From Pachysolen tannophilus NRRL Y-2460 (taxonomy: Eukaryota): 64,000 bases of DNA. The position numbers and the translations under genes are program-made. Under the pieces are notes generated by a model. That model made no database searches. It had not been told where the DNA came from and saw nothing but the letters and a program-made list of their open reading frames with translations. This document shows, piece after piece, positions 9,650 through 55,722 of this stretch (position 1 is the first letter of the stretch; each line of letters begins with the position of its first letter). The stretch is from assembly GCA_001661245.1 (NCBI GenBank), contig KV454014.1, positions 351,559 through 415,558 of the forward strand. Reading direction: 5' to 3'.

Positions 9650-10609
9650 ATGATGGAGATGGATGATTTTTCATGGGATGACATTGAGCCATGTGAAATT
9701 AGTAGCGCCGGCACTTCTGGGGTTGAAATATGCAATATTCAATATTCTGATGAGTATAAACTTGTTATGGGATATTTGATTAAGTTAATGTCATTAAAAG
9801 AATATAGTGAAAGAGCGTTAATACTTACTGATCAAGTTATAAAACTTGTACCTCTGCATTATACTATTTGGCAATATAGGTTTGATATAATTAAATTTTT
9901 AAAGAAAGATATTTTAAAAGAATTAGAATGGTGTGAAAGAGTTGCATTAGAAAATCAAAAAAATTATCAAATTTGGCATTATAGACAATTATTAATTGAA
10001 TTATATATTAATAATAATGGTAAATTTAAACCTGAATTTGAATATCCATTAATTGATACCATGATTGGTGAAGATAATAAAAATTATCATGTTTGGGCAT
10101 ATAGAAAATGGTTAGTTGAAAAATTTAATTTATATCTGGATCAAAGAGAAATTTTTTTCATTAATGAAATGTTAACAAAAGATATTAGAAATAATTCTGC
10201 ATGGAATCATAGATTTTTCATTTTTTTTAATAATAATAATAAAGAAATTACTAAAAATTTAATTAAACAAGAAATTGAATTTACTAAAAATGCAATTGAT
10301 TTAGCTCCACAAAATCCATCACCTTGGAATTATTTATTAGGAATATATGAAAATGAAAAATTTAATTTAAATTTAAAAGATTTAGAACCATTTTTATTAA
10401 AATATTCTAATATTGAAGAAGAATTAAATGATGGGAAAATAGAACCTTTAATAATATCTACATTTTCATTAGAAATATTAGCTAAAATTTATCAATTAAA
10501 TAATTTATCAGAAAAATCTATTAAAATTTATAATTTATTAGCTGATAAGTACGATCCGATTAGGAAAAACTATTGGCACTATAAAAGAGATAATCTAATC
10601 TCTATATAG
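9650..10609 (+). CDS. RAM2: Protein farnesyltransferase/GGTase-I alpha subunit
   Basis: PPTA repeats: HYTIWQYR, KNYQIWHYR, KNYHVWAYRKW, RNNSAWNHR, PQNPSPWNYL; C-terminal YDPIRKNYW. Confidence 0.95.
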   Translation: MMEMDDFSWDDIEPCEISSAGTSGVEICNIQYSDEYKLVMGYLIKLMSLKEYSERALILTDQVIKLVPLHYTIWQYRFDIIKFLKKDILKELEWCERVALENQKNYQIWHYRQLLIELYINNNGKFKPEFEYPLIDTMIGEDNKNYHVWAYRKWLVEKFNLYLDQREIFFINEMLTKDIRNNSAWNHRFFIFFNNNNKEITKNLIKQEIEFTKNAIDLAPQNPSPWNYLLGIYENEKFNLNLKDLEPFLLKYSNIEEELNDGKIEPLIISTFSLEILAKIYQLNNLSEKSIKIYNLLADKYDPIRKNYWHYKRDNLISI

Positions 10610-10900
10610 TTCAGTTACTTTTATTTTTTTTTTTTTTCATTCTATTTTCATTTTCATTTTTATTTATTTATATTTAATTTTAAAATGATATCATAACATT
10701 CTCTAACATCATTCTTATTACTTTACTGCTTTTTAAATTCCTTTGTTTCCTCCAGGTTAAACAAAATCAGAAAAAAAAAAACAAATTAAATTTTTTTGTT
10801 GAATTTTCCCCAACAAAAAAAGCAAAAAATAAAAAAAAAAACTGAATTTTTAAAGTATTCACACTACTTGAATATAACAAGAGATGAGATTAGTAAATTG

Positions 10901-11020
10901 TAACAGCGGTTAACTAAATTTAAAAAAGAAATAAAGAAAAATATATATATATAACAAGATATTTAAAACCGCGGTTAGTCTTATATAACGGCGGTTAGTA
11001 AATTTTTAATGGCGGTTAGC
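10901..11020 (+). promoter_or_regulatory. Four copies of GCGGTTA (context AAnnGCGGTTA) upstream of FAD2
   Basis: Copies at 10906, 10971, 10991 and 11012, all in the same orientation within otherwise AT-rich DNA. Confidence 0.6.
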
Positions 11021-11427
11021 ATTAAGAATAGATCTATCATCTAATGAACATGGAAACTGTAATAATCCAGATCCTGGTACCTGAAACCTTGAAATTAAAT
11101 TGATTTTATTTATTTCTTTTTTGTTGTAAAATTAATGCAAGTTAAGAAATAAAAAAAAAGATTTTTTTTTTTTGGCTTAAAAAAAAAGGTAGCTTCTTTT
11201 TTTCTTTTTATTTTAATTTATTTTATATATATAAATAAATATATATATATATAAAAAGTTGATATAGTTTATAGAGTTGATAGGCTTGCTTTTAGAAGGC
11301 TTTATTGTGGTTTTGCTTTTCTTACGTTTATATATCTATCTTTATATATTTGTATAACTTTTTCTTTTTTTTTTTCTTTTTTCTTTTTTCTTTTTTCTTG
11401 TGTTTTTTTTTTTATTTTTTTTTTTGT

Positions 11428-12711
11428 ATGATGTCAGCGGTTATTGTTACATCTAATGATGGTGATGGTTCCAATTCCAATTCCAATTCTAGAATCACTT
11501 CAACGCAGAAAAGAGGTAATGTTGCTTCATTGAAAGATGAAAATTTAACAGCCATTGATACTTTTGGTAATGTTTTCAATGTACCAGATTTTTCAATTAA
11601 AGATATTTTACAACTGATTCCTAAAGAATGTTATAAAAGAAGCGCGGTTAAATCTTTAAGTTTTGTCTTAAGGGATATTTTACTGATGGTTACTATTGGT
11701 TCTATTTCATATAATTATATTGAATTGATTCCTTGGAAGTTTGCAAGGTTTTGTTGTTGGGCATTAAATTGTTGGTTATTAGGTCTTTTTGGTACTGGTT
11801 TATGGGTATTGCTGCATGAATGTGGTCATCAAGCTTTTAGTGATTATGGATGGTTAAATGATACTGTTGGTTGGATCTTACATTCTTATTTACTTGTTCC
11901 ATATTTTTCATGGAAATTTAGTCATGGTAAACATCATAAAGCAACAGGTCATTTAACAAGGGATATGGTTTTTGTTCCACTGACAAAAGATGAATTTTTA
12001 GCTGCAAGAAATGTTTCTCATTTAGCAGAATTGGCTGAAGATTCTCCAATAGTTGCTCTTTATGAATTATTGGCCCAACAATTAGGTGGTTGGTTAATGT
12101 ATCTTACTTCAAATGTTAGTGGTCAACCTTATTCTGATGTTCCATTTTGGAAAAAAAATCATTTTGTTCCAACAGCACCACTTTTTGATAAAAAAGATTA
12201 TTGGTTTATATGGTTATCAGATTTAGGTATATTATTACAATTTTTAATATTATATAAATGGGTTAATACTTTTGGATGGTTTAATTTTACAGTTTTTTGG
12301 TTTGTTCCATATATCTTGGTTAACCACTGGTTGGTATTTATCACTTTTTTACAACATTCTGATCCAACAATGCCTCATTATGAAGCAGAACAATGGACTT
12401 TTGCTCGTGGTGCTGCTGCTACAATTGATAGAGATTTTGGTTTTGTTGGTAAATACATTTTCCATGATATTATTGAAACACATGTTTTACATCATTATGT
12501 TTCAAGAATTCCTTTTTATAATGGAAGAGTTGGTACAGAACTGATTAAAAAAGTTATGGGAAAACATTATAGATATTCAAACGAAAATATGTGGAAAAGT
12601 TTATGGAAATCTGGAAGATATTGTCAATTTGTTGAAGGTGAAAATGGAGTCAAAATGTATAGAAACATTAATGGCTTAGGAGTAGCCCCTGCTGATTTAC
12701 AAAAAAAATAA
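11428..12711 (+). CDS. FAD2: Delta-12 (omega-6) fatty acid desaturase
   Basis: His boxes HECGH, HGKHH and HVLHH; HQAFSDYGWLNDTVGW. Real start is the ATG at 11428 or 11431; the upstream poly-Phe extension is a poly-T artefact. Confidence 0.93.
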   Translation: MMSAVIVTSNDGDGSNSNSNSRITSTQKRGNVASLKDENLTAIDTFGNVFNVPDFSIKDILQLIPKECYKRSAVKSLSFVLRDILLMVTIGSISYNYIELIPWKFARFCCWALNCWLLGLFGTGLWVLLHECGHQAFSDYGWLNDTVGWILHSYLLVPYFSWKFSHGKHHKATGHLTRDMVFVPLTKDEFLAARNVSHLAELAEDSPIVALYELLAQQLGGWLMYLTSNVSGQPYSDVPFWKKNHFVPTAPLFDKKDYWFIWLSDLGILLQFLILYKWVNTFGWFNFTVFWFVPYILVNHWLVFITFLQHSDPTMPHYEAEQWTFARGAAATIDRDFGFVGKYIFHDIIETHVLHHYVSRIPFYNGRVGTELIKKVMGKHYRYSNENMWKSLWKSGRYCQFVEGENGVKMYRNINGLGVAPADLQKK

Positions 12712-13429: not shown

Positions 13430-14376
13430 ATGAATGAACAGGATTTGATTAACCATATTACATCACCCATTCTTTCTTCAATCGATGACGATAATCAAAG
13501 GTTAGAAGACAGGGAAAATGAAAAGGCTAGTTCTTCCTCATCGTTCATTAATACCTATAATAGTTTTCAACACCAACCACAGCCACTTCATTTGCAGTTT
13601 CAACATCAACAACAACAACAACAGCAGCAGCAGCAGCCATTTATAAGCACACCTGTGGCCACGGCGTTCAATAACACGAGTAGTTTATTGCTCTTGTCGT
13701 CGCCAGAGTTGAATGGTGGTAATAATAATCTTGGTAAAGCAGTTGAAAATTTTGGAAGTTTTTTGTCACCGCAGTTTGGAGAGTTGAGTATTGAAGATGA
13801 TGGGTTCATGTGTGGACCGACTCAGCAGCAGCAACAGCAGCAACAGCAACAAGGCCAAGGTGTTCTGCTGCCAGTTGCAGGCTCGATGACTTCATCCACG
13901 GCCAATACAGCTGCTACAGGACTAAGTTCTTACTTTGATAATAATCATGGTAGTAGTAATAATAACGGATTATCATCGCCGGTATCAAATAGTGGGTTTG
14001 GAGGTACAAGTAGCATGTTCCCGATTTTCTCGAGCTTACAGCAACATGATAACTTGATACATAGACCGTTATCTGTACAAGAGTTTACTACAAGCACTAG
14101 CAATAATAGTAATAACAGCAGTAACAATAATAATAGCGGTAATAGACAGCGTTTTACAAATTATCAACCTTCTACGTTACAACAACAACAACAGCTTTTT
14201 TTGAGTAGTGGTAGTACGGATAGTGGGAATTTTAATTCAGAATTGTTTGAATTCAAAATGTGGTTGGAGAAATTGAATTCAAGACAACAGTTGTACGTTG
14301 TTGATTTAATCCCGAAAACTATATCTACAGATAATTTGAAAATTTTGAAAAATAAGTTGGACTTAGCATTGCCACA

Positions 14377-14420
<44 letters not shown>

Positions 14421-14852
14421 AGCAACAGCAGCTGCAACCGGCTTCGTCGTTTAGCTTGAATGCAATTCCTAACCCTGACTATTTTGAACAACTGAGACCA
14501 AAATCTGCTGACATGATATACCATAAGCAGCAGCAGGATTTTCCCTCTCTGCAAAGGTTACAAAGACCAGCAGGAACCCCAGATTATACCAATAGTAATC
14601 ACATTGCAACACAATCAGTAGGTACTGGAACTATAGCTAGTAAAGGAAATAGGAACAGTAATAATAGTTCAAGTGCAATGGATTACAATCGGTCAACTTC
14701 ACCAATGAACTATGACGATTTAAACGGTCAAAATTTTTTGAAGTTAAAAGCATTGTTAACAATCCAATCTAGGGCAAAATTGGATAACGGTAAGAAGTTT
14801 GAAGAAAGAGGAAGATCGAACAATACTGCTAATCAAAGTTCGAGAGCTAATC

Positions 14853-14887
<35 letters not shown>

Positions 14888-15613
14888 GTCATTAATAGTG
14901 GTAAGGGAAATTTTGCTAATAACATCAATGTTAGTGGGAAGTACAAGACAACATCTGTCCCACCGCCAGCTTCAAGATCAAGTCTTCACAATGATATTGG
15001 ATCCCCACAATATAATGTTCATTCACAGATGAATAGAAATACAAGACCGGGAACACCTGGACCTCCTGGAACTAACACATCGTCTACAATGTCGACTAGT
15101 GCTACTCCCAATTCTACTGTGTTACCAGCTTCCTCTTTTTCTAACCAATCCCACGATAGTAGTAGCAACAAAGTATTAAATGATTCCTTGTTGAAACTAG
15201 CTTCGATAAATAATATTAAAAATCAGTCCGTTACAGATTTGGATTCAAATAAGCCAACTACACCTTTATCACTTCCTTCCACACCACAATATCCAACATC
15301 GTATTTCCAACAGCAATACTTTCACAATCCACGTCCTCAGCCGCAACTGCACCCAGAATTATCAAATCCTCCAAAATCTCCAATGCCATTAGAAATCACT
15401 TCATTGGAATTGCTAAATAATATTCCTCTGTGGTTGAAAACTTTAAGACTACATAAATATACAGATATCTTGTCAAGTCATGATTGGAAAAAAATGATCT
15501 ATTACGATGACGTAGAGTTGGAAAGAATTGGTATCAGTACAGTCGGAGCAAGAAGGAAGTTGTTGAAAGCATTTGCTATCGTCAAAGAAAGGTACGAAAG
15601 AGGTGAAATCTGA
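13430..15613 (+). CDS. VTS1: Smaug-family RNA-binding SAM-domain protein with a Q/N-rich N-terminus
   Basis: C-terminal SAM domain IP[CTG=A]WLKTLRLHKY...GARRKLLKAF, RPKSAD motif, polyQ/polyN tracts. First ATG at 13430. Confidence 0.92.
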
Positions 15614-22057: not shown

Positions 22058-22795
22058 TTATTTTGCTAATTTATTAAGATCAGTAGCATCAATTATCTTG
22101 ACTGAACCATCTGGATAATTTTTTGATTCATCAATGATTTTCAAGATAGCTCTACCTATTTCCTTATCACTTACTGGAGCCAAGGTGTAAGGTGCAAGAA
22201 ATGTATTATGGACCAATGAACCAAGAGATGAGGCTATAGATGCTGGTAAACCTTTTGATTTTTCGCGTTTACCTAATAATACTCCTGGTCTTAAAATAAT
22301 AGTTTTGTTAAATTTTAAATCAATTATTTCTTCTTCTAATTGACCTTTCATTTTTAAATATGGGAATTTAGATTTTGATGATGCCAGCATAGTAGAAACT
22401 AAGATATATGTTTGTATATTTAAATTTTTCTTGGCAATTTTAGCTAATTGTAAATTTAAATCATGATCAATTTCATATTGTCTTTCTAAACTTCCAGCCA
22501 GTGCTTTAGTTGTACCTAGACTTGAAATAAAAATTTTTAAATTTTCATTGCATAATTTTTCCATTGAATTAACCCAATTAATAATATTAGGCTCAATTAC
22601 TTCAGTTGTCTTTACATTAGGTATAAAATCCGGAACTTTCCTTCTTGTTAAAGAATAAACATTTTTAATTGTTTCCGAATTATTCAATTGAATTAATATT
22701 TCTTTTCCAACAAGTCCCGTAGAACCAACAATTAATACACTATTATCATCTGATGACATTGCGTAAATTAAATAAATTAATCTAATCAATACCAT
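22058..22795 (-). CDS. FMP52: Fmp52/TIP30-like NAD(P)-binding protein
   Basis: GSTGLVG, SSLGTTKA[CTG=A]AG, IDHDLN, YLKMKG, ILRPGVLLG. The start is either 22795 or the ATG at 22759. Confidence 0.88.
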   Translation of the reverse strand: MVLIRLIYLIYAMSSDDNSVLIVGSTGLVGKEILIQLNNSETIKNVYSLTRRKVPDFIPNVKTTEVIEPNIINWVNSMEKLCNENLKIFISSLGTTKALAGSLERQYEIDHDLNLQLAKIAKKNLNIQTYILVSTMLASSKSKFPYLKMKGQLEEEIIDLKFNKTIILRPGVLLGKREKSKGLPASIASSLGSLVHNTFLAPYTLAPVSDKEIGRAILKIIDESKNYPDGSVKIIDATDLNKLAK

Positions 22796-23206: not shown

Positions 23207-24772
23207 ATGGCGCTGACAAATAGTCATAATAATTTAAACAATAAAATACCGTTGTCACATACTTTATGGTCTCCTTCAGATACTGTTAAAGATGTTGCTG
23301 AATCATTAGGTTTAAGTAATTTAAATGATGAAGTTGCCAAGAATTTGGCCATGGATGTAGAATATAGAATCCATGAGATACTAGAACAAGCAATCAAATT
23401 CATGAGACATTCCAAGAGAAAAACTTTAACTACACAGGATATTGATAGATCTTTAAAACTGTTGAATTTAGAACCATTATATGGTTACGACGCTACACGA
23501 CCTTTGGTTTTCAAAGAAGCTATAGTTGGTGCTGGTTCTAATTTATACTATATAGATGATGATGTTGTTCCTTTTGAAAAATTGATTAATCAACCATTAC
23601 CTAAGATTCCAAGGCATTGTACTTTTACTGCACACTGGTTAAGTATTGAAGGTATTCAACCTTCAATTCCTCAAAATCCTTTGGTAAGTGATATAAAGCA
23701 AATATCTCCATTTTTGAGAGGAAGTATGCAAAATTTAGCTATATTGAATAGTGATGAAGCCTCATCAACTGTAACGCAGCAACTGCAACAACTGCAACAA
23801 CAACAACAACAACAACTGCTGGATAATGGTGCGGTACAAAATGGGTTGAATCAAAATCTTAAAAATAACAAATCATCAAAGGATTTGGATGTTAAACCAT
23901 TGGTTAAACACGTTTTATCAAAAGAATTACAATTATATTTTGATAGAGTAATTGGTGCTTTAATGAATGAAAATTATGATGACCCACAAATGGAACATTT
24001 GAAAAGTGCCGCATTGAATTCTATTAGATCTGATCCAGGTTTACATCAATTAGTACCATATTTCATTCAATTCATAGCAGAAACAATAACAAATAATTTG
24101 AAAAATTTAGCAATCTTATCTACAATGCTAGAAGTGATTTATTCCTTATTGATGAATCAAACTATTTTCTTGGAACCCTATGTCCATGCTTTAATGCCTT
24201 GTATTTTAACTTTATTATTGGCTAAAAAAATTGGTGAAAATGCAAATATTGAACATTTTGCTACAAGAGATTTTGCATCTTCATTATTAGAACATATTGT
24301 TAAAAAATATGGATCTTCATTTTCAACTTTGAAACCAAGAATAACTAGAACTTTATTGAAAGCTTTCTTGGATACTAATAAACCAATTGGAACACAATAC
24401 GGTTCTATTATAGGTTTGAGATCTTTAGGTGATGAAGTTATAAGAATTGTAATGTTGGGGAACTTGAAAAATTGGGCAAATGTTGTATTAAATGATAAAG
24501 ATACTAAATTTAATAATGATGAAAGGAAAATTTTACTCGATTCAGTCTTAAATTCTCTTCGTGTTTTAAAAATAAATAAAGAAATTGGAAAAGAAGAAGA
24601 AGAAGATAAAGATAAAATGGAAGTTGAAGCTGAGGAAAATGAAGGCGTAGTCATTGATGACACATTGAAAAACAAGTTAAATCAAAGAATTGGAAATGAA
24701 TTAAGTCAAGAGATTTTAAAACAGGACGATGCTTTAGATATTGTCAAGGGAATATTCTTTGGTGAGTTATAG
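23207..24772 (+). CDS. TAF6: TFIID/SAGA subunit Taf6
   Basis: Histone fold (LAMDVEYRIHEI, KFMRHSKR), FTAHWL, KHVLSKELQLYF, DPGLHQLVPYF. Confidence 0.97.
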   Translation: MALTNSHNNLNNKIPLSHTLWSPSDTVKDVAESLGLSNLNDEVAKNLAMDVEYRIHEILEQAIKFMRHSKRKTLTTQDIDRSLKLLNLEPLYGYDATRPLVFKEAIVGAGSNLYYIDDDVVPFEKLINQPLPKIPRHCTFTAHWLSIEGIQPSIPQNPLVSDIKQISPFLRGSMQNLAILNSDEASSTVTQQLQQLQQQQQQQLLDNGAVQNGLNQNLKNNKSSKDLDVKPLVKHVLSKELQLYFDRVIGALMNENYDDPQMEHLKSAALNSIRSDPGLHQLVPYFIQFIAETITNNLKNLAILSTMLEVIYSLLMNQTIFLEPYVHALMPCILTLLLAKKIGENANIEHFATRDFASSLLEHIVKKYGSSFSTLKPRITRTLLKAFLDTNKPIGTQYGSIIGLRSLGDEVIRIVMLGNLKNWANVVLNDKDTKFNNDERKILLDSVLNSLRVLKINKEIGKEEEEDKDKMEVEAEENEGVVIDDTLKNKLNQRIGNELSQEILKQDDALDIVKGIFFGEL

Positions 24773-30262: not shown

Positions 30263-30293
<31 letters not shown>

Positions 30294-32813: not shown

Positions 32814-34757
32814 TTAGTGTTTTTTATGTCTTGTTGTATTTTCGTATTCACATTTTTCCCAAAATTCAACATTATTATTGATATTATCCACTAAAAATTG
32901 TAATTCTGGTAAAAAATTAGCCATTTTTTCGAAAAAAATTAATGCAAATTGATTTATAAAATATAATTGTCCCTTTGATAATGCTGGCATGATTTTTGAA
33001 GCTTCTTCTGGGGTAATTTTTTGTAATTGTACAATATCCAGCACTTGATCTTGTGCTGAAACTGGTATTGGTATTTGTAATTGTAATGGAACTTGATTAT
33101 GATTTTTTTGTTGTTTCTTCAATAGTAAGAATTTTTCAAGTGATGCAACTTCACCCATTTCATTAGTTAATGATACCCCCCATCTTGCAGAAACTAATAA
33201 TGGCCGACATACATTTGAAATATCTGCACATTTAATTAATAATGAACATAACAAAAGACGAATTGTAGTTACTTCATCTTTATCGAAATTGCACCATACT
33301 TGATCTTGTTCTTCTTGTAAATTATTGTTATTGTTATTGTTATTGTTATTGTTATTGTTATTATTATCATTTTCTTTACCTTCTGTCGGCACCCTTTGCC
33401 TATATTTCATTAATCGATCAATTTTTTCAATATAACTGAAATGATTCATCATATCTGTTGATAATATGCTTAATTCAACAATTTCTTGTCCATTTTCAAT
33501 AATATTATTTTCAAATAAAAATGAACAAAAATTTATCAATATAGATCTAAATTGTGTAAAATGAAATTTTTCTAAAATTGATTGATTATTAAAATGTTGA
33601 GCTATAGGTGTTTTAAATTCCAGTAAAAATGTATTCGTTAATCCAGGATGTCCAATATCATGACCTAAACATGCAACTAAAAGCAGTAATGTATAAACTG
33701 GTGTCAAGAAAACTCCTGATACTCTCAGAGTTGTTTCATTTTTCGGTATTGATCTTTTATTACCATCTCTTGGAGGTATACAATCCAAACTAAGTAAAAT
33801 ATAAAAAGCCAGTTGTAATACATCTATTGCATGTCTAAAATTATGGAAAGCATTACCCATTCTATAATTATCTCTCACAGTAAATAAAAAACACAAGAGT
33901 TCATTTTTATTATGCCATTTTGTTTTTGAAAAAAAATTTTTTTCCTTATTATTCCCATTAATTAAATTATTATTATTATTATTCTTATCATCACAATTAT
34001 GAACTGCTATTTCAAGCATTAAACAAGCACAATAAAGTAATTCATCATATGATAATGAATGTGATTTAAATTCCCATTCATATATCAAATCAAGATAATA
34101 ATCAGTATTATGATTTAAATTTAATAATTTAAAATAATCTATTTCTTTTACAAGTAATTTTTTAAATTTTTCATTTTTAATTATTGGAGTTTCAATATCA
34201 CCAAGCATTGAAGGTAAATTATTATTATTATTATTATTATCATTATTATCAAATAAAATTTCATTTTTTAAACCAATCCATGATAATGTTCTACTAAATT
34301 TTGAACTCCATAATTCTAAATAAGAAATTAATTCATTAGCAGTTGGTAATTTAATAATTTTTATATCATCATAAACTTGAATTATTATATTCAAATGACG
34401 GAAATATTCATTTATCAATTCTATTAATTCATCAGTTAAAAGTCCATCTAATGAATCTTTCTCATAACAATCCATAAACCCACGATCTTTTCTAATAAAT
34501 AATAATATAGGATGATCTAATTCTAATTCCATCAAATTCACTTCATCATAATTACTAGTATTTGGATACCTATTTTTCAATATTAAATATTCAATCAAAT
34601 CATGAATAGAATAAAAATAAGCTGATATAAAATTTACCTCATCATTCGGAAAAATTAAATTTAAATCTCCTTCCACTTTCTGTCCAACATTATCTCTATC
34701 ACCATCTCGAAACTTGTCCAAAATAAGATACTCTATCATCCTGCTTGATCTATTCAT
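32814..34757 (-). CDS. PDE2: High-affinity class I cAMP phosphodiesterase
   Basis: FHNFRHAIDVLQ, GHDIGHPGLTN, ILSTDM, LIKCADISNVCRP, GQLYFI. Confidence 0.93.
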   Translation of the reverse strand: MNRSSRMIEYLILDKFRDGDRDNVGQKVEGDLNLIFPNDEVNFISAYFYSIHDLIEYLILKNRYPNTSNYDEVNLMELELDHPILLFIRKDRGFMDCYEKDSLDGLLTDELIELINEYFRHLNIIIQVYDDIKIIKLPTANELISYLELWSSKFSRTLSWIGLKNEILFDNNDNNNNNNNLPSMLGDIETPIIKNEKFKKLLVKEIDYFKLLNLNHNTDYYLDLIYEWEFKSHSLSYDELLYCACLMLEIAVHNCDDKNNNNNNLINGNNKEKNFFSKTKWHNKNELLCFLFTVRDNYRMGNAFHNFRHAIDVLQLAFYILLSLDCIPPRDGNKRSIPKNETTLRVSGVFLTPVYTLLLLVACLGHDIGHPGLTNTFLLEFKTPIAQHFNNQSILEKFHFTQFRSILINFCSFLFENNIIENGQEIVELSILSTDMMNHFSYIEKIDRLMKYRQRVPTEGKENDNNNNNNNNNNNNNNNLQEEQDQVWCNFDKDEVTTIRLLLCSLLIKCADISNVCRPLLVSARWGVSLTNEMGEVASLEKFLLLKKQQKNHNQVPLQLQIPIPVSAQDQVLDIVQLQKITPEEASKIMPALSKGQLYFINQFALIFFEKMANFLPELQFLVDNINNNVEFWEKCEYENTTRHKKH

Positions 34758-36684: not shown

Positions 36685-37854
36685 ATGTCAGCACTTGGGT
36701 TGTTGAAGATAACTCTATTATCAGCGATGATGGTGGTGTCATCACTTGTGTCGGGATTATTACCCTTATCAGTAAAACTTTCAAATCAGCGCTTGAAATT
36801 AATATCGGTATTTAGTATGGGGATATTGTTAAGTACATCATTAATTATAATAATACCTGAAGGAATAGAAACATTATATGAATATACCAAGAATTCAGGA
36901 GATAATAATAATGGAGAAAAAAATCCACGTTTAATAGGTTTATTATTATTATTTGGTTTTACAACAATGTATATTGTAGAAAATATTAATGTAATTAGTA
37001 AAAATTCAGATTCAAATAAAATTAAATATACAGGAATTAATGATAGTATTGATTCATTTAATGATAATGATTTTGAATTTAGATTGGATTCACTGCTGCT
37101 GCTGCTGGATGATACTACTAGTGATTTAGAAAGAAATAATATTAATAATTTTCATTCAATTTTAAAAATATGTTTAACTATACGTGATTTACTGATGGTT
37201 TCACCTGCTAGTCTTGGTCTTTTAATTCATTCACTTTGTGATGGTGTTGCATTGACTTCATCAGTATTAGCTGCAAATAAATCATTAAGTGTTGTTGTAT
37301 TTATAGCTATATTTGTTCATAAAGTTCCAACAGCTTTCAGTTTAACTTCAGTCTTATTAAATGAAAATATAAGTCGAAGATTAATAAAAATGCAATTAAT
37401 TGTTTTCAGTTTTAGTTTGGCTGTTGGATCAATTGGAAGTTTTATTGTTTTCAGTTCTTGGACTGCTACTAGTGATAAAGATGATGACATGAATAGTGTC
37501 GAATATTTTACAGCAGCATTGTTATTATATAGTGGAGGAACATTTTTATACGTTGGAGTTCACACAATGTTGGAAATCTTGGGTGAAGGAGATAATGGTA
37601 GAGACAACCAAGAAGATATAGTACCACAAAGACTGCGAAGTTCTGGAAGTGAAGAAACTGTTGTTGTTGATGGTAGTGGTGGTATTAATTCTGTCGTTGC
37701 TGCTAATTCAACCATTCCAACGGGAAGAAACAACAATCGTCATCATGGACATCATCATCATGCAGCAGAAGTACAAAAATTAAGTTTGAGTGAATTTGGA
37801 TTGAGTTTACTTGGTATGGTGTTACCAGTACTTATTGGATTGGTCAAGGAGTAA
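36685..37854 (+). CDS. ATX2: ZIP-family metal transporter, Atx2/ZIP9-like
   Basis: GLLIHSLCDGVAL, FVHKVPTAFSL, LYSGGTFLYV, His-rich loop, multiple TM segments; convergent with BUD21. First ATG at 36685. Confidence 0.85.
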   Translation: MSALGLLKITLLSAMMVVSSLVSGLLPLSVKLSNQRLKLISVFSMGILLSTSLIIIIPEGIETLYEYTKNSGDNNNGEKNPRLIGLLLLFGFTTMYIVENINVISKNSDSNKIKYTGINDSIDSFNDNDFEFRLDSLLLLLDDTTSDLERNNINNFHSILKICLTIRDLLMVSPASLGLLIHSLCDGVALTSSVLAANKSLSVVVFIAIFVHKVPTAFSLTSVLLNENISRRLIKMQLIVFSFSLAVGSIGSFIVFSSWTATSDKDDDMNSVEYFTAALLLYSGGTFLYVGVHTMLEILGEGDNGRDNQEDIVPQRLRSSGSEETVVVDGSGGINSVVAANSTIPTGRNNNRHHGHHHHAAEVQKLSLSEFGLSLLGMVLPVLIGLVKE

Positions 37855-39517: not shown

Positions 39518-39614
39518 AGAGGGGGGGGGGGGGGGGGGGGGGGGAAATATCTCAAAACAAAAACAAAAAACCCTATTTTGAATTTTGAATTTTAAATTTT
39601 AAATTTTGAATTTT

Positions 39615-40451
39615 TCAGGCAACACAGTAACCACCATCAACTACAAGATCAGCACCGGTTGTGAAGGTAGATGCATCACTTGCAAAATAGAGGTATGCAC
39701 CTACCAATTCACGTGGCAAGGCTTCTCTGCCCATTGGAGTTAGACTCCACCACAGTCTTTTCCTATCAATTGAAGCGAAATTGTTTAAATCTGTCTTTAT
39801 ATAACCTGGAGAAACGGTATTAACTCTTGCGAATCCTGCCCACTCAACAGCCAAAGATCTTGCCAAATGTAATACAGCAGCTTTTGAAGCATTGTATGGA
39901 GCTTGCATCTGTGGGACATTGACAATGTGTCCAGACATTGATGCGGTTGCAATAAAGGACCCTTTACCCTTTTTCTTGAAAATCTTTGCAACAGTCTTTG
40001 CACAGTAGTAAACACTATCAACATTACACTCCATAACGTTTTTATACTGTTCATCGTTATTATTAGTGATTTCATCCGAAGTCCATACAACACCAGCATT
40101 AGCAACAAAGATATCTATTGTTCCAAAATCTTTTTCAATTTGAAGAATTGTTTCTTCAACAGCAACCTTGTCATTAATTGCACACTTGTAAGCTTGTACC
40201 TTAACATTGTATTTCTTAGCCAACAGCTCGGCCTTATCGTGGCATGGGTGGGAATTATACCATATCGCAACATCAGCACCCGCTTGACAAAATGCTTCAG
40301 CAACAGCAAAACCAATTCCCGAGGAACTTCCAGTAATTGAAGCAACTTTACCTTTTAAAGAAAATAAATCTCTAACATCATTAGCAAGAACAGGATCACC
40401 TCTTGGAAGAGGACCAATATCTCTAAGTGCACTTCTAGCTTCCCTTGACAT
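39615..40451 (-). CDS. SOU1/SOU2-type short-chain reductase (sorbose/L-xylulose/carbonyl reductase), NADPH-type
   Basis: [39 protein letters not shown]. Confidence 0.88.
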
Positions 40452-41092: not shown

Positions 41093-41962
41093 TTAGACAC
41101 AGGTGTAACCGCCATCAACTACGATATCGGAACCTGTGGTATATGTTGCTGCATCACTTGCCAAGTAAAGATATGCCCCAACTAATTCTTGTGGTAATGC
41201 TTCTCTACCTAAAGGAATTAGACTCCACCACTTGGCTCTTATTTCTCTTGGTAAAAAATCAGATAAACCAGAATCAACGTAACCAGGGGAAACAGTGTTG
41301 ACCCTCGCGAATCCGGCCCACTCAACAGCCAAGGACTTTCCAAGATGGACGCATGCGGCTTTGGCAACATTATAACAAGTTTGCAGGTTTGGAACGTTTG
41401 CAATATGACCCGATTGTGAAGCAGTAATAATGAATGAACCATGTTTGTTTTTCTTGAAAATATGGCCAACAACTTTAGCACAGTAATATACAGCATTCAA
41501 ATCAACATCGATTAATCTTCTCCATTTTTCAACAGATTCATTGACTGGATCCAAGATTGGGCCCGTGGTCCATGCAATACCAGCATTTGCCACGAAAACG
41601 TCAATAGTACCGAAATCCTTCTCAACGTCTAAAATTATTTTTTCAACGTCTTCAGAGACCGTAACGTCAACCTGATATGCAGCAACTCTGTTTCCATACT
41701 CTGAGGCTAGTTTCTTTGCAGAGATAGAACCATCATTATAATCTATAATTGCAATATCTGCACCTGCTTGACTATAGCATTCAGCAATTGCAAAACCAAT
41801 ACCTCTAGCTGCTCCAGTAATAACTGCAACTTTCCCTTTTAAAGAAAACGCATCAAAAATATTTGTTTTCAATTCTGGTGTTGGAAACGGTAATTCTTGA
41901 GTAAATTCGTCAGAAATATAAGACCTAGTTGGTCCTTGGTATTCTTGTGTTTGAACAGTCAT
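41093..41962 (-). CDS. Second SOU-like short-chain carbonyl reductase, probably NADH-type
   Basis: TGAARGIG, AIIDYN (Asp at the end of beta2), FVANAG, YNVAK, VDGGYTCV. Confidence 0.88.
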   Translation of the reverse strand: MTVQTQEYQGPTRSYISDEFTQELPFPTPELKTNIFDAFSLKGKVAVITGAARGIGFAIAECYSQAGADIAIIDYNDGSISAKKLASEYGNRVAAYQVDVTVSEDVEKIILDVEKDFGTIDVFVANAGIAWTTGPILDPVNESVEKWRRLIDVDLNAVYYCAKVVGHIFKKNKHGSFIITASQSGHIANVPNLQTCYNVAKAACVHLGKSLAVEWAGFARVNTVSPGYVDSGLSDFLPREIRAKWWSLIPLGREALPQELVGAYLYLASDAATYTTGSDIVVDGGYTCV

Positions 41963-42689: not shown

Positions 42690-43538
42690 CTATTTAAAGA
42701 AATGATGTAAATCTTTTAACCAATTCACATACTCATCGTTTTCTTTAACTTTTGAAAATTCAACAATAAATCGAGCCAATTCATAATCAACACCAATATC
42801 TTGTAAATATAACTCAAAAAATTCTTGTACAGAATCTTCCAATAAGTCAAAGTCTGGACCTGAATATTGTAAATTTTTCAGGTATTGCAGTGCAGAAGAT
42901 ACCGATAAAGCATACTGGTTATCTTTATAAACGGTCATTGACTGCGTTATAAATCTCATATCATCAATTAATAAATATGAGTGGATACCTAAAGATTGAT
43001 TTTTTGCTGGATTTTCAATTATAAAATTGACATTCATTGGAATGTCTTCAGGTGGAAATTCCAGTTCTATATCCTTAGATTCTCTAATACTACCATCAGC
43101 ATCTTCATCTTCTTCTTCTGCTTCTTCTTCTGCTTCTCGTTGTAATCTTTCCCTTTGTAAACCAGCATTATATATTTCATTTAACTCTGTGGAATCAAAA
43201 AATATATGAAGTTTTTGACCATCTGGTAATTTTTTAGAAATTTTGACTAATTTTTCTGAAATTGTATTTTCAATTTCTAACTGGTGTTTATGAATATAAT
43301 CTTTTTCAACATCTTCCAAGAGTAATGGCTGGCTTTGTTCCAATACATATTCACTTTCTAATACTTTAACCAATTCATCTTTTATGCTTGAAGATTCATT
43401 GAAAACAAAAGATTTATTTGTGAAAAAACGGTACAGAGAAAACCGGTTATTAAAGGATATTGTACTTGCTCGATTAAATTGTCTTTGACTAAGATTTAAA
43501 ATCCTAATCAGACATTGACGAGTATTTGAAATTAACAT
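42690..43538 (-). CDS. MAM33: Mitochondrial acidic matrix protein Mam33 (C1QBP family)
   Basis: Arg/Ser-rich presequence, acidic loop, C-terminal YSGPDFDLLEDSVQ...KENDEYVNWL. Confidence 0.88.
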   Translation of the reverse strand: MLISNTRQCLIRILNLSQRQFNRASTISFNNRFSLYRFFTNKSFVFNESSSIKDELVKVLESEYVLEQSQPLLLEDVEKDYIHKHQLEIENTISEKLVKISKKLPDGQKLHIFFDSTELNEIYNAGLQRERLQREAEEEAEEEDEDADGSIRESKDIELEFPPEDIPMNVNFIIENPAKNQSLGIHSYLLIDDMRFITQSMTVYKDNQYALSVSSALQYLKNLQYSGPDFDLLEDSVQEFFELYLQDIGVDYELARFIVEFSKVKENDEYVNWLKDLHHFFK

Positions 43539-43946: not shown

Positions 43947-46316
43947 TTAAATCTGAAGTAATCTAGTACGTCTTTTTTCGATTTTTGATACATCTAACCC
44001 TCCACCTGCAAAGTGTAACGCCCTTTCTCTTTCGAATTGAATTTCCATGAGTCCGTCTCTTTCACAAAGTGGCATTTGATCAACTATGAAATAATCTCTA
44101 GTGATAAATTCTCCACATTTATGACATGTTAAACATCCTGGATGGAATTTTTCTTTATTTTCATTTTCAAGACATTGTCCTTCAATACCTTTTGTACAGA
44201 TATGACATAATGAATCGTTTAATTCGTGGAAATGCTGTTCACAGTATGGGTGGTCTTGAATAACGTAACAATTGGAACCTTTATCAAAAACCATCAGACA
44301 GTTGTGGCAACTGAAACAATCTCTGTGCCAACGACCTGAAAGCTGACCATCTTTTGACCAGATTGATTTCCCGATTATATTTAGTCCACATCTACGACAT
44401 GGACCTTTACCTGCAGGGTATTTGATATCAGGTTTTTCGTTGGAAATAACTTGTTGTGTCTGTTGATGCTGCTGCAATTGTTGTTGCAGTTGTTGTTGTT
44501 GCAGATGCTGACACTGCTGAGACTGTGACTCTTGTTCATTCAACTTCGAATTTGGTGGTACATGTACATTTGTTGATTGGAAAAAATCAGATCTAGGGGA
44601 ATCCATAGGAGTGCTGTTACCACTTAAATTAATGTTAATAGCTTTCAGCTGTTTTGAAAAATTTAACTGTGGATTATCCAATGATTTAGGAGATGCTGAA
44701 GAAGTCTTACCGGAGAAAAATAATGGCTTAGTCTGTTCTTCTAAATCTATATTATTCGGTAATATCTTATGATGAACAAATTTTTCACTGATTGCTTTAT
44801 CTGCATCAGCTAATCTTTCACTAACTGAAGGCAGAGTAAAGTTATCATCATATTTTAAATTTTGTTCTGCAGATTTCACTGGTGATTTGGTACTAGTTGT
44901 AGTAGTTGTATCCGGTGTTGTTGTGTTATTATATCCATTTTTTTCATCAAAATATTCATCTTCTTCACCTCCTGTTAAGTCACTATATACTCTGCTTCTA
45001 AATTCTTCAATTGTCAAATTTTTATTATTATTATTACTATTATTAATATTATTAATGTTATTATTATTATTATTATTATTATTATCATTAACGCTATATT
45101 GCGGAGAATCGTTAACAAATACATGATACAGTAATTTCGGGGTTTGTTGTGCTTTTGTACCCGTTAATGCTTCATAAGTTTTATCTCTATTCATGTAAAC
45201 ACTGTTGTTATTGACATTACCATAAATACTAGAAGGTTCAAATGAGTTATCTTGAATTGGTCCATAGAAATCTTCTGGGTTATCACTACTATTATCCCCT
45301 GTATGATTCACTGAGATTTTTGGTACATTTATCACTGGTATTTGGAAAGAATTATTTTCACGTTGATGAGGAGCACCTACTGGAATATCAGATTCAACAT
45401 CAACGTCAACATCATGATCAGTATCATGGTCAGGGTCAGTCTCATGATCGATATTTGAGTCAATATCAGAATCAACGGGTTGTGCAATGATACTTGTGAC
45501 AAGTGGTCCATCAGGCTTGTTATTATTAAGTTCAAATTTTTTATCAAATTCTGCAATTGAAGATGTATAACTAGCTGTATCTAAATTCTTTCTTTTCCCA
45601 GGTCCTAAAAATCCATTTTCTTCAATTTTTAAATTCAAATTTTGATTTGTTAAATTTGAATTTTGGAAAATAAAATCTGAAGAATCTGTATTATCCAGCA
45701 GTTCAGGGATTGTAAATTTTTCTTGACTTTTTGGAGAAATTAAACCTTGAACTTTTGGACTTGGATAAGAAGATTTTTCATTAGAAGATTTTTCTTCAAA
45801 ATCAGATTCTGTTGGAGTTCTTAAATGTGTATTATTATTTTGAGTTTTAATTGATGAATTACTTGCAATAATACCAACATCACTAAAATTTCTAGTTTCC
45901 TTATATAAAGAAGGTTGTGAATGATTCAATGAAGCAATATCAGGATTACTTTGAGAAGAAGAAACCAGATATTGAGTATCCCCTTTTTTAATTTTATCAT
46001 CTGTACCTCTAGGAAATCTTTTCGCTTCATTAGGACTTGGTGAATTTTTAGCAGACTTGGCAAACATCGAATTACATTGAGATGGATGATCAATATCATG
46101 TGAATGTGAATGATTCTTATAATCCCCTTTATAAACTTCAAATCCAGCTCTTTCATAAACACCCCTATATTTTTTATCTGGATGTAATGGAGGGAAGGGA
46201 GAATTGAACCTAAATGAAGGATTATTTCGAATAAATCGAGGTAAAGAATCCATCGTTGGTGATTGCGGTACTCCTGAATCACCCTTTCTCAGTTGCAACT
46301 TTGTCTTTTCAAACAT
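43947..46316 (-). CDS. PXL1: Paxillin-like LIM-domain protein
   Basis: N-terminal YRGVYERAGF; two C-terminal LIM domains (GPCRRC...GRWHRDCFSC...YCEQHFHELNDSLCHIC); ends IEKRRTRL. Confidence 0.88.
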   Translation of the reverse strand: MFEKTKLQLRKGDSGVPQSPTMDSLPRFIRNNPSFRFNSPFPPLHPDKKYRGVYERAGFEVYKGDYKNHSHSHDIDHPSQCNSMFAKSAKNSPSPNEAKRFPRGTDDKIKKGDTQYLVSSSQSNPDIASLNHSQPSLYKETRNFSDVGIIASNSSIKTQNNNTHLRTPTESDFEEKSSNEKSSYPSPKVQGLISPKSQEKFTIPELLDNTDSSDFIFQNSNLTNQNLNLKIEENGFLGPGKRKNLDTASYTSSIAEFDKKFELNNNKPDGPLVTSIIAQPVDSDIDSNIDHETDPDHDTDHDVDVDVESDIPVGAPHQRENNSFQIPVINVPKISVNHTGDNSSDNPEDFYGPIQDNSFEPSSIYGNVNNNSVYMNRDKTYEALTGTKAQQTPKLLYHVFVNDSPQYSVNDNNNNNNNNNINNINNSNNNNKNLTIEEFRSRVYSDLTGGEEDEYFDEKNGYNNTTTPDTTTTTSTKSPVKSAEQNLKYDDNFTLPSVSERLADADKAISEKFVHHKILPNNIDLEEQTKPLFFSGKTSSASPKSLDNPQLNFSKQLKAININLSGNSTPMDSPRSDFFQSTNVHVPPNSKLNEQESQSQQCQHLQQQQLQQQLQQHQQTQQVISNEKPDIKYPAGKGPCRRCGLNIIGKSIWSKDGQLSGRWHRDCFSCHNCLMVFDKGSNCYVIQDHPYCEQHFHELNDSLCHICTKGIEGQCLENENKEKFHPGCLTCHKCGEFITRDYFIVDQMPLCERDGLMEIQFERERALHFAGGGLDVSKIEKRRTRLLQI

Positions 46317-53539: not shown

Positions 53540-54090
53540 TATCAAAAATATTATATTCCTCTATAAACTTAACAATCGATCAACTAATCAATCGATCAAC
53601 TATCAATGAATATTAAATTCAAGATTATCTGTTTCAAATTGTGGAAACAAAAACAAAATTATTAATAAACACTTTTATTATGTGCGCCTCCTTTTTTTTT
53701 TTGATTCTCTTATTGATTTGCAATCATAAAAACACAATAAAAACAAGCAGCTCTTTATCAACCATATATAAGTAATCAGATAGATATATTGGTTGAACTA
53801 TCTTTCAGAGCTCAATTAATGTTTAATGGATATATTATTATGTGATGAGATAAAACACTAAAACTTGAATTGTCATATTATTTAGGCTTATTGTGGAACC
53901 AGGTTTCAAGTAAGATGCGTACGACCTAAAAAAAACACACTTCCTTATCAGTTCATCGATTGATCATCAATTAATCATCGATATATCTATATATCTACAT
54001 ATATATATATATATATAGATATCTACCGTAAACTACTGCGAGAGAAGATTAGTCTATTAAATAGTGGCCTATATAGTGGTTATTATAAAT

Positions 54091-54866
54091 TTACCATTGG
54101 GTGATATCAGCTTCTACTTCACCAAAGACGCTATCTTTTTTAACATTCATGTCATTGTTTTCTTGAGCTTTAACCATTTCTTCCGCGCCAGCTACTCTTT
54201 GAAGCATCAATTCTTTCAAGTTTTCATTTTCGAAATCTAGGATTAATTTGTTAATACTTTCAAATTCTAATAAGAAAGCATCATGGCCCTCTGGTGAATC
54301 GATTTTCTCTAGTCTTGCTTTTGGTAAATATTTTGCAAGACTTTGTTGCTCGCTATAAGTGAATAAAGCATCTGATTTTATACCAATAACTAGCGTTGGT
54401 TGCTGTAATGAGCCTAACAGTTTTTCAATTGAATTTTCAAACTCAGGTCTATCACGAGATACATCATGTGTGTCCAATTTCCTGGTTATTGCTATATAAC
54501 AATTTGCATCAAACCTCTTGACAAATTTTTCGCCCTGATACCTTAAGTAAGATTGAGCAGAGAAAAAATGTGGAGGTCTATGTTTATTACGCTGGCGAGG
54601 ATTTATGTGCTGCTGTTGTTGTTGTTGTTGCTGCTGATGCAGCTGTTGCTGATTAGATGCATTTAACGAAATTGAGGAAGTAGATGATGTTATGCTTGAT
54701 ATTGAGTCTGTAGAATCCCTTCTTATAGATGATGACTGAGGTGAATATAATTCTGTGGATGATGAAAGCGATGATTTTCTTAATACATGCCTGGCGCTCT
54801 TTAGTCCATCATTATGTATTGTCCAATTATCTTCTGCTCCATCTTCATTTTGCTGATGCGCGGCGC

Positions 54867-54899
<33 letters not shown>

Positions 54900-55722
54900 C
54901 AGTTTTAGTTTTAGTTTTAGTTTCATTTTCAGTTTGGGTTCCATTACCCAAGGTTTTCAATTTCCCGTTCCTCTTGTTACCATCATTTCTACCAAATCTT
55001 GCTTCAAATGAATTTCTTGATCTATAAGTTAATAAAGCAGCCATTCTTGCTGCACTCAATCCATTTGATGGCGGATCATCCAAGGAATAATAACCTTCCT
55101 CATATTTCGGATCCGAATAAATACACTGACGTTGTGCTTCACCCCAGGATATACACCAAGCAGAATGTCTTGCACTTGTTGCCAATGCAACACAAGTTTT
55201 CACATATTCTTTACCGAGAAATAACCATTCTAATGATAACATTCCACCCATCGATCCTCCTATAACAATAGCAATCTGCTTCACTCCTAAATCATCCAAA
55301 ATCAACTTGTGCAGATTAACATCATCTCTAATAGTGGTCAAGGGAAATTCAGGTCCATAAATCTCACCAGTTTCTGGATCTTTTGTAACTGGAGAAGCAG
55401 ATCCATAAGGTGATCCAAATGAATTGGAACATATAATGAAAAATTTTGTTGGATCAAACGCCTTATCTTTCCCCAACAATGGACCCCACCAATCACTCAC
55501 ATCTGCAGAACCAGTCAATGCATGACATATAACCATACAATTATTTCCTTCTTTATTCAATTTCCCCCAAGTCTTGTATGCAATTGGAACATTATAAATA
55601 ACATCCCCATTCTCTAATTGAAATTCAGGAATCTCAACAATAGTCTGATTTGAAACAAGCTTACTAAACGGATTTTCAGGTTGAGATTCCAATCTCTTGA
55701 GCTTATTTGTACTTGATGTCAT
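54091..55722 (-). CDS. MET2: Homoserine O-acetyltransferase
   Basis: CHALTGSAD, GGSMGG nucleophile elbow, RFDANCY, SPEGHDAFLLE; carries a low-complexity insertion. Confidence 0.96.

What the first reader, a model, noticed from the sequence alone, without database searches (positions are those of the whole stretch)
9854..55314. Non-standard genetic code: CUG is read as alanine (Pachysolen-type, table 26)
Seen in sequence: in-frame CTG codons at FAD2 11614 (DILQ-CTG-IP), 11812 (WVL-CTG-HECGH) and 12541 (TE-CTG-IKKVMG); RAM2 9854 (P-CTG-HYTIW); VTS1 15428 (IP-CTG-WLK); FMP52 22499-22501 minus (TTKA-CTG-AG); PDE2 33810-33812 minus (DVLQ-CTG); MET2 55312-55314 minus (DDVN-CTG-H). Established knowledge: the family consensus at these positions is Ala (AIP, LAHECGH, EAIK, PAHY/PANY, PAWL, RAAAG, DVLQA, DDVRAH), not Leu or Ser. 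Inference: the genome belongs to the CUG-Ala clade (Pachysolen tannophilus most likely; Nakazawaea/Peterozyma possible), and every CTG 'L' in the supplied translations should be A. The reassignment is already described for that clade and would be new only if the organism lies outside it. One ambiguous site: SDR2 41384-41386 (NVPN-CTG-Q), where some homologs have Leu.
Basis: partly seen in the sequence, partly recalled or inferred. Interest (0 to 1): 0.85.

Follow-up and report, generated by a model that had tools for sequence, protein, structure and literature searches.

The report
Yeast reading CTG as alanine
This stretch of budding-yeast chromosome uses the rare but already described genetic code in which the codon CTG means alanine instead of leucine, so its genes must be translated with NCBI table 26.

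Summary
The 30 long ORFs of the window hold 112 CTG codons.

I made a Codetta-like tally on four deeply aligned families (FAD2, PDE2, FMP52, MET2). It gave 13 usable CTG columns:
- Alanine fits them better than leucine by 33.1 nats and better than serine by 35.2 nats.
- 46 of 48 testable codons decode as standard. The only other exception is trivial (ACC, n=4, 0.4 nats).
- None of 20,000 random sets of 13 ordinary leucine-codon columns reached the observed value.

The public database copies of two of the window's own proteins already carry Ala at all 7 of their CTG sites. A PDE2 tree puts the window beside the Pichiaceae, where the published CUG-Ala clade sits.

VTS1 shows Met/Leu in homologs, and MET2 site 137 is mostly Leu/Ile. 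The tRNA could not be examined because no genome is held.

Verdict: table 26, most likely Pachysolen tannophilus itself. It is already known, and the interest is low.

The parts
11428..12711 (+). FAD2-like delta-12 fatty acid desaturase gene. It has 5 CTG codons, at aa 63, 86, 129, 185 and 372 (nt 11614, 11683, 11812, 11980, 12541).
   Evidence: Pfam FA_desaturase. Columns 63, 129 and 372 are A in 94, 118 and 103 of 119 homologs; columns 86 and 185 are variable. The public copy P0001 has A at all 5 sites.
9650..10609 (+). RAM2-like prenyltransferase alpha subunit gene. CTG at aa 69 (nt 9854) and aa 163 (nt 10136).
   Evidence: Pfam PPTA. PDB alignments: site 69 is S (C. albicans) and A (A. fumigatus, C. 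neoformans); site 163 is not conserved.
13430..15613 (+). VTS1-like SAM-domain RNA-binding protein gene. It has 7 CTG codons; the one in the SAM domain is at aa 667 (nt 15428).
   Evidence: Pfam SAM_2. Site 667 aligns to M in S. cerevisiae Vts1 and to L in Smaug, so this column is not an Ala column.
22058..22795 (-). FMP52-like gene. CTG at aa 99 (nt 22499) and aa 137 (nt 22385).
   Evidence: Pfam HIM1. Site 99: A 45, Q 37 of 119. Site 137: G 95, A 5, L 2 of 119. The public copy P0241 has A at both sites.
32814..34757 (-). PDE2-like cAMP phosphodiesterase gene. CTG at aa 316, 344, 358, 379 and 573 (nt 33810, 33726, 33684, 33621, 33039).
   Evidence: Pfam PDEase_I. Site 316: A in 114 of 120. 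Site 358: G 52, A 31, S 15, T 14. Site 379: I 75, V 13. Site 573: L 33, V 18, I 17. Site 344 lies in a gappy loop and is unusable.
54091..55722 (-). MET2-like homoserine O-acetyltransferase gene. CTG at aa 137 (nt 55312), aa 361 (nt 54640, in a poly-Q insert) and aa 435 (nt 54418).
   Evidence: Pfam Abhydrolase_1 and PDB homoserine O-acetyltransferases. Among 150 representatives, site 137 is L 63, A 36, I 19, V 11 and site 435 is V 55, A 54.
41093..41962 (-). SDR (carbonyl reductase / mannitol dehydrogenase-like) gene. CTG at aa 193 (nt 41384).
   Evidence: Pfam adh_short_C2. The site aligns to L in four C. parapsilosis reductase chains and to E in a mannitol dehydrogenase.
42690..43538 (-). 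MAM33-like gene. It has 5 CTG codons; aa 217 (nt 42888) and aa 220 (nt 42879) lie in the domain.
   Evidence: Pfam MAM33. Site 217 is A in S. cerevisiae Mam33 and in the trypanosome p22 protein (2 of 2). Site 220 is T and Q.
23207..24772 (+). TAF6 gene. CTG at aa 85 (nt 23459), at the end of the histone-fold domain, plus 5 others.
   Evidence: Pfam TAF and TAF6_C. Site 85 aligns to V, V, V and L in four TAF6 structures.
37093..37107 (+). Run of five consecutive CTG codons in a ZIP zinc-transporter gene (aa 137-141). It reads AAAAA under table 26 and LLLLL under the standard code.
   Evidence: Codon list and Pfam Zip. No homolog comparison was made.

Best explanation
The window is nuclear DNA of a budding yeast of the CUG-Ala clade (order Alaninales, family Pachysolenaceae), most likely Pachysolen tannophilus itself. 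In this clade CTG/CUG is decoded as alanine (NCBI table 26).

Shown here:
- Homologs place alanine, not leucine or serine, at CTG columns.
- The other testable codons are standard: 46 of the 48 with at least 4 usable columns, with ACC a 0.4-nat tie and CTG the only clear exception.
- Public protein records for this locus already use Ala at CTG.
- On one gene, the lineage sits beside the Pichiaceae.

[quoted passage not shown] AlaRS ignores the anticodon, so this tRNA is charged with alanine. The ancestral tRNA-Leu(CAG) was lost.
For: 1. Column tally on 13 usable CTG columns in 4 families: log-likelihood for A is -22.5, for L -55.6, for V -56.2 and for S -57.7. Of 48 codons with at least 4 columns, 46 decode as standard; the exceptions are CTG (33.1 nats) and ACC (n=4, 0.4 nats). 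Leaving out any one family keeps A best, with A-L between 17.4 and 30.8.
2. 0 of 20,000 random sets of 13 non-CTG Leu columns reach the observed A-L of +33.1 (their maximum is -11.6). GCN Ala sets have a 95% range of 29.7-72.9.
3. In columns at least 75% conserved, CTG gives A 4, G 1, L 0. Other Leu codons give L 58 of 60 and A 0. Fisher p = 7.4e-6.
4. Mean homolog frequencies at CTG columns are A 0.392 and L 0.083. At other Leu codons they are 0.033 and 0.534; at GCN codons 0.466 and 0.051.
5. Public copies P0001 and P0241 of the window's own proteins have A at 5 of 5 and 2 of 2 CTG sites.
6. The nearest relative P0002 (72.6% identical, unnamed) has L at 3 of 14 conserved-Ala columns, two of them shared with the window's CTG sites. 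As a positive control, several hits show L at conserved Ser columns, as expected if they come from CUG-Ser species read by the standard code (their organisms were not checked).
7. PDE2 tree: the window plus P0121 (support 1.0) is sister to Kuraishia, Ogataea, Komagataella and C. boidinii (0.972). This matches the published position of the Ala clade (PMC5951914, passages read).
8. PDB alignments add MAM33 217 (A in 2 of 2), MET2 435 (A in 5 of 5 structures) and RAM2 69 (A in 2 of 3 species).
9. Literature for P. tannophilus (PMC4937558, passages read): the tRNA(CAG) carries G3:U70 and A73, and 97.2% of 907 fully supported CUG positions were alanine by LC-MS/MS.
Against: - Several CTG codons sit at hydrophobic columns where leucine would look more conservative: PDE2 379 (I 75, V 13) and 573 (L 33, V 18, I 17); MET2 137 (L 63, A 36); TAF6 85 (V, V, V, L); VTS1 667 (M, L); SDR2 193 (L x4, E); CARME 378 (L in human, in a gapped stretch).
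- The observed A-L score lies in the lower 4.9% of GCN-alanine column sets.
- Only 28 of the 112 CTG sites were compared with homologs, and only 13 of those in deep alignments.
- No tRNA gene lies in the window and no genome is held. The decoding tRNA, the absence of tRNA-Leu(CAG) and peptides were therefore not examined here.
- The species name rests on indirect evidence, because the names of the window's own records are masked.
Confidence: 0.93

Rival explanations
1. Standard code: CTG is leucine. The Ala columns would be chance, or lineage-specific Ala-to-Leu replacements.
For: Some CTG sites sit at L/I/V/M columns: PDE2 573, PDE2 379, MET2 137, TAF6 85, VTS1 667 and SDR2 193.
Against: Leucine fits 33.1 nats worse than alanine. 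0 of 20,000 Leu-column resamples reach the observed score. Of 60 strongly conserved columns at other Leu codons, 0 are Ala, against 4 of 5 at CTG. It would put Leu into the invariant LAHECGH histidine-box context of FAD2, where 118 of 119 homologs have A. Public records already use Ala at these sites.
Confidence: 0.01
2. CUG-Ser code (table 12): CTG is serine, as in the Candida / Ser1 or Ascoidea / Ser2 clades.
For: RAM2 69 aligns to S in C. albicans. Ser is the second-best residue in the three-family tally.
Against: Ser fits 35.2 nats worse than Ala in four families. No CTG column has S as its plurality residue, and the mean S frequency at CTG columns is 0.028. The PDE2 tree places the window away from the Ser1 genera and from Ascoidea and Saccharomycopsis.
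Confidence: 0.01
3. Table 26 decoding is correct, but the organism is another member of the CUG-Ala clade (Nakazawaea or Peterozyma) or an unsampled relative, not P. tannophilus.
For: The names of the window's own records are masked, so no call names the species. The published clade holds three genera (PMC5951914, passages read).
Against: In three protein searches no named P. tannophilus ortholog appears beside the masked self-hits. The only named Pachysolen hit (P0113) is 57% identical, which fits a paralog. The pair window-P0002 (72.6% identical) mirrors the pair Pachysolen P0113-P0120 (73.3%). That is the pattern expected if the window is Pachysolen and P0002 and P0120 come from one relative.
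Confidence: 0.12
4. Ambiguous decoding: CUG is read mostly as Ala, with a meaningful share of Leu through wobble by tRNA-Leu(UAG).
For: CTG columns are somewhat less Ala-like than GCN columns (lower 4.9% tail). About a quarter of the sites examined are at aliphatic columns.
Against: Published LC-MS/MS for P. tannophilus found alanine at 97.2% of 907 fully supported CUG positions (PMC4937558, passages read). A simpler cause exists: CTG is one mutation away from Leu, Val, Met, Gln, Pro and Arg codons, so young CTG codons arise at such columns wherever Ala is tolerated (inference).
Confidence: 0.03

Closest known systems
Pachysolen tannophilus nuclear code (NCBI table 26; CUG-Ala clade of Pachysolen, Nakazawaea and Peterozyma; order Alaninales)
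   Same: CTG codons fall mainly on conserved alanine columns and all other codons are standard. The position is sister to the Pichiaceae Leu2 genera. CTG density is 3.7 per ORF here (112 in 30 ORFs) against 16,824 in 5,288 proteins, about 3.2 per protein, in the paper (PMC4937558, passages read). The public proteins of this locus are already translated with Ala.
   Different: Nothing found that differs. The tRNA-Ala(CAG) and peptide evidence that define the published case could not be re-examined from this window.
CUG-Ser codes (table 12: Candida / Ser1 clade; Ascoidea and Saccharomycopsis / Ser2 clade)
   Same: The same codon is reassigned, also in budding yeasts. According to the literature it is captured by an anticodon-mutated tRNA after loss of tRNA-Leu(CAG) (PMC4937558 and PMC5951914, passages read).
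   Different: The amino acid is alanine, not serine: Ser fits 35.2 nats worse. The lineage is separate on the PDE2 tree.
Eremothecium mitochondrial CUG = Ala
   Same: CUG is read as alanine (mentioned in PMC4937558, passage read).
   Different: That case is mitochondrial and arose by changing the acceptor-stem identity of a tRNA-Thr. The window holds nuclear genes such as TAF6, SNF1 and PCF11.

Membership tests
NCBI table 26 / CUG-Ala clade | In-frame CTG codons align preferentially with alanine in homologs | tested here: met
   On 13 columns in 4 families, A beats L by 33.1 nats and S by 35.2 nats. 0 of 20,000 Leu-column resamples reach the observed score. In conserved columns CTG gives A 4, G 1, L 0.
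NCBI table 26 / CUG-Ala clade | All other sense codons keep their standard meaning | tested here: met
   46 of 48 codons with at least 4 usable columns decode as standard. The only other exception is ACC (n=4; V over T by 0.4 nats). Codons with fewer than 4 columns were not tested.
NCBI table 26 / CUG-Ala clade | A tRNA with anticodon CAG carrying the alanine identity elements (G3:U70, A73) | not testable with these tools
   No tRNA in the window by ARAGORN or Rfam. No whole genome is held. The feature is described for P. tannophilus in PMC4937558 (passages read).
NCBI table 26 / CUG-Ala clade | Absence of a competing tRNA-Leu(CAG) | not testable with these tools
   No genome is held.
NCBI table 26 / CUG-Ala clade | Peptides with Ala at CUG positions | not testable with these tools
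   Literature only: 97.2% of 907 fully supported CUG positions in P. tannophilus (PMC4937558, passages read).
NCBI table 26 / CUG-Ala clade | Phylogenetic position within the Ala clade, sister to the Pichiaceae Leu2 clade | tested here: met
   One-gene (PDE2) FastTree of 25 sequences and 531 columns. The window plus unnamed P0121 (1.0) is sister to Kuraishia, Martiniozyma, C. boidinii, C. arabinofermentans, Ogataea and Komagataella (0.972). No named Ala-clade ortholog was in the tree, so membership of the clade itself is inferred.
CUG-Ser (table 12) | CTG codons align with conserved serine | tested here: not met
   No CTG column has S as plurality. Mean S frequency is 0.028, and LL(S) is 35.2 nats below LL(A).
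Standard code (table 1) | CTG codons align with leucine, like the other Leu codons | tested here: not met
   Mean L frequency is 0.083 at CTG columns against 0.534 at other Leu codons. Plurality is L in 2 of 13 CTG columns against 112 of 166.

The most novel reading that the evidence does not exclude
CTG columns here are measurably less alanine-like than GCN columns (lower 4.9% tail). About a quarter of the 28 sites examined sit at aliphatic (L/I/V/M) columns. The boldest reading not excluded is a residual or condition-dependent Leu reading of some CUG codons in this lineage, meaning dual decoding as in Ascoidea asiatica. A second possibility is that the window comes from an unsampled member of the clade with a different tRNA(CAG) history. 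The plainer reading is mutational: CTG lies one step from Leu, Val and Met codons.
Probability: 0.04. Interest if true: 0.55.

Novelty: already known. Interest (0 to 1): 0.1.

Why it matters
The practical point is annotation. Under the standard code each of the 112 CTG codons in these 30 ORFs would be given the wrong residue. That includes the alanine of the LAHECGH histidine box of the FAD2 desaturase and a conserved alanine in the PDE2 catalytic domain.

Scientifically nothing is new. The reassignment was published in 2016, has its own NCBI table, defines the order name Alaninales, and is already applied to the public protein records of this locus. What is worth keeping is that a reader with no tools can detect a sense-codon reassignment from a single 64-kb window, and that a four-family column tally is enough to confirm it.

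Tried and rejected
- Whole-genome access for a tRNA(CAG) search: no genome is held. The window has no tRNA by ARAGORN and no Rfam match at gathering score.
The same point was made instead from the two self-hits P0001 and P0241.
- PDE2 search: it returned neither a self-hit nor a named Pachysolen hit, so it adds nothing on how that gene is publicly translated.
- Sequencing runs: 5 runs in 2 studies hold the stretch, with organism names coded and no RNA holder listed. No reads were laid, because near-identical DNA cannot say how a codon is translated.
- Earlier findings of this scan: none for this genome or for these words.
- A literature search for the GC content of P. tannophilus gave nothing usable. 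The window's GC of about 0.22-0.34 is therefore not used as evidence of species.
- PDE2 site 344, MET2 site 361, MAM33 site 159 and malate synthase site 20 lie in gappy or unaligned stretches and were dropped.
- Sites that proved uninformative because homologs vary: FAD2 86 and 185; RAM2 163; malate synthase 80 (K, A) and 410; SDR1 76 (H, E) and 233 (K); MAM33 220 (T, Q); SNF1 360 (S, Y).
- The two N runs were considered as possible masked features. They are flanked by long A and G homopolymers, so they are read as assembly gaps.

Full report
**What is in the window.** The 64-kb window is AT-rich, with GC between 0.22 and 0.34 per 4-kb bin. It is densely packed with intron-free-looking ORFs. 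I kept 30 ORFs of at least 150 aa after dropping three nested antisense ORFs from the list of 33. Pfam identifies them as ordinary budding-yeast nuclear genes. Examples are an NLE/WD40 protein, PCF11, GMP synthase, RAM2, a FAD2-type desaturase, VTS1, SLD3, FMP52/HIM1, TAF6, malate synthase, a La protein, PDE2, a ZIP transporter, two SDRs, MAM33, a sterol glucosyltransferase, MET2, an Rpp40-like protein and SNF1. There is no tRNA or other Rfam family in the window. Two N runs (28261-28728 and 39167-39517) are flanked by long homopolymers and look like assembly gaps.

**The observation.** The 30 ORFs hold 112 CTG among 14,812 codons. CTG (112) is commoner than CTA (62) or CTC (22). That is odd for a leucine codon in so AT-rich a genome, but on its own it proves nothing.

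**Homolog columns, deep alignments.** I spent all three word-indexed protein searches (FAD2, PDE2, FMP52) and the single exhaustive representative search (MET2). Each query was aligned with its 119, 120, 119 or 150 hits, with the self-hits P0001 and P0241 left out.
- FAD2: site 63 is A in 94 of 119, site 129 is A in 118 of 119, and site 372 is A in 103 of 119. Sites 86 and 185 are variable.
- PDE2: site 316 is A in 114 of 120. Site 358 is G 52, A 31, S 15, T 14. Site 379 is I 75, V 13. Site 573 is L 33, V 18, I 17. Site 344 lies in a gappy loop.
- FMP52: site 99 is A 45, Q 37. Site 137 is G 95, A 5, L 2.
- MET2: site 137 is L 63, A 36, I 19, V 11. Site 435 is V 55, A 54. Site 361 lies in an insert.

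**Codetta-like tally.** I used columns with at most 20% gaps. For each codon I summed the log frequency of every amino acid over the columns where the window has that codon.
- Of the 48 codons with at least 4 columns, 46 come out with their standard meaning.
- The exceptions are ACC (n=4, a 0.4-nat tie between V and T) and CTG (n=13), where A wins over L by 33.1 nats and over S by 35.2 nats.
- Dropping any one family leaves A best.
- Mean homolog frequencies at CTG columns (A 0.392, L 0.083) resemble those at GCN codons (0.466, 0.051). They do not resemble those at the other leucine codons (0.033, 0.534).
- Among columns at least 75% conserved, CTG gives A 4, G 1, L 0. The other leucine codons give L 58 of 60 and A 0. 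Fisher p = 7.4e-6.
- None of 20,000 random sets of 13 leucine-codon columns reaches the observed score; their maximum is -11.6 against +33.1.
- The observed value lies inside, but low in, the range of GCN sets (95% range 29.7-72.9; 4.9% of sets fall at or below it).

**PDB alignments.** I read them by eye.
- MAM33 217 is A in 2 of 2; site 220 is T and Q.
- MET2 435 is A in 5 of 5 structures. Site 137 is I, A, A, V, A.
- RAM2 69 is S in C. albicans and A in A. fumigatus and C. neoformans.
- TAF6 85 is V, V, V, L.
- VTS1 667 is M in S. cerevisiae and L in Smaug.
- SDR2 193 is L in four C. parapsilosis chains and E in one other chain.
- SDR1 76 is H/E and site 233 is K.
- CARME 378 is L in human, in a gapped stretch.
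- SNF1 360 is S/Y.
- Malate synthase 80 is K/A and site 410 is variable.

In all, 28 of the 112 CTG sites were compared with homologs. The other 84 were not. Many of those lie in poly-Q or otherwise low-complexity stretches.

**Results against the reading.** About a quarter of the sites examined sit at aliphatic columns where leucine would be the more conservative residue. My explanation is inference, not a test. CTG is one substitution away from TTG and CTN (Leu), GTG (Val), ATG (Met), CAG (Gln), CCG (Pro) and CGG (Arg), but two substitutions from any GCN codon. New CTG codons should therefore arise at such columns wherever alanine is tolerated. This would also account for the many CTG codons inside poly-Q tracts. 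The 2016 paper likewise says that Pachysolen's CUG codons lie 'mainly at conserved alanine positions', with some shared positions at poorly conserved columns (PMC4937558, passages read).

**The locus is already annotated this way.** The top hits of the FAD2 and FMP52 searches are the window's own proteins in the public collection. Their names are masked, both lie on a contig of 1,446,495 bp, and both are 99% identical to the query. Every difference from my standard-code translation, apart from a later start codon, is L to A at a CTG codon: 5 of 5 in P0001 and 2 of 2 in P0241.

**Which organism.**
- The PDE2 tree (25 sequences, 531 columns, FastTree LG+gamma, rooted on Nadsonia) joins the window to the unnamed P0121 (support 1.0). 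It places the pair sister to Kuraishia, Martiniozyma, C. boidinii, C. arabinofermentans, Ogataea and Komagataella (0.972), apart from the CUG-Ser genera. Krassowski et al. place the Ala clade (Pachysolen, Nakazawaea, Peterozyma) in that position relative to the Leu2 clade (PMC5951914, passages read).
- The nearest FAD2 relative, P0002 (72.6% identical, unnamed, presumably translated with the standard code), has L at 3 of 14 conserved-Ala columns. Two of these are shared with the window's CTG sites, so it appears to be another CUG-Ala species.
- As a positive control, several other hits show L at conserved Ser columns, as expected if they are CUG-Ser species read with the standard code; I did not check their organisms.
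- The only named P. tannophilus hit in the three searches is P0113, at 57% identity, which fits a paralog. Its own nearest relative P0120 is 73.3% identical to it, mirroring the window-P0002 distance.
- No named Pachysolen ortholog appears beside the masked self-hits.
- I read this as the window being P. tannophilus itself, with about 0.8 confidence. Another member of the clade is not excluded. NCBI taxonomy files the species under Alaninales / Pachysolenaceae.

**Mechanism.** The column evidence is shown here. The mechanism is taken from the literature. [quoted passage not shown] LC-MS/MS found alanine at 97.2% of 907 fully supported CUG positions. The authors favour capture of the codon after loss of tRNA-Leu(CAG) (PMC4937558, passages read; I did not read the supplements). 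None of this could be re-examined, because no genome is held and the window holds no tRNA.

**Verdict.** The feature is a known genetic code in a known clade and is already applied to this locus in public records. The novelty class is 'already known', and the interest is low except as a reminder to translate this genome with table 26.

Noticed in passing
window 37093-37107 (+): Five consecutive CTG codons in a loop of the ZIP transporter gene. They read AAAAA under table 26.
   Followed up: no
window 30252-30363 (-), 44487-44502 (-), 23783-23819 (+), 58775-58790 (+), 54640 (-): Many CTG codons are scattered inside poly-glutamine tracts (QQQ-CTG-QQ patterns) of the La-domain protein, the LIM protein, TAF6, SNF1 and MET2. 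CTG is one transversion from CAG, so these may be young codons giving Q-to-A changes in low-complexity sequence.
   Followed up: partly
window 28261-28728 and 39167-39517: Two N runs (468 and 351 nt) are flanked by long A and G homopolymers. They look like scaffold gaps in a draft assembly. The 177-aa 'ORF' at 39048-39581 is an artefact of the second run.
   Followed up: yes
window 39615-40451 (-) and 41093-41962 (-): Two paralogous SDR genes lie close together on the same strand. Both are most similar to Candida parapsilosis stereospecific carbonyl reductases (E 8e-116 and 1.3e-102).
   Followed up: partly
P0212 (hit): A yeast-like PDE2 homolog is labelled in NCBI as 'MAG... [Asgard group archaeon]'. 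In the alignment it looks like the CUG-Ser-clade yeast sequences, so it is probably a fungal contaminant in a metagenome bin.
   Followed up: no
window 32001-36000: This is the lowest-GC stretch of the window (0.219), around PDE2 and the long intergenic region up to 36685.
   Followed up: no
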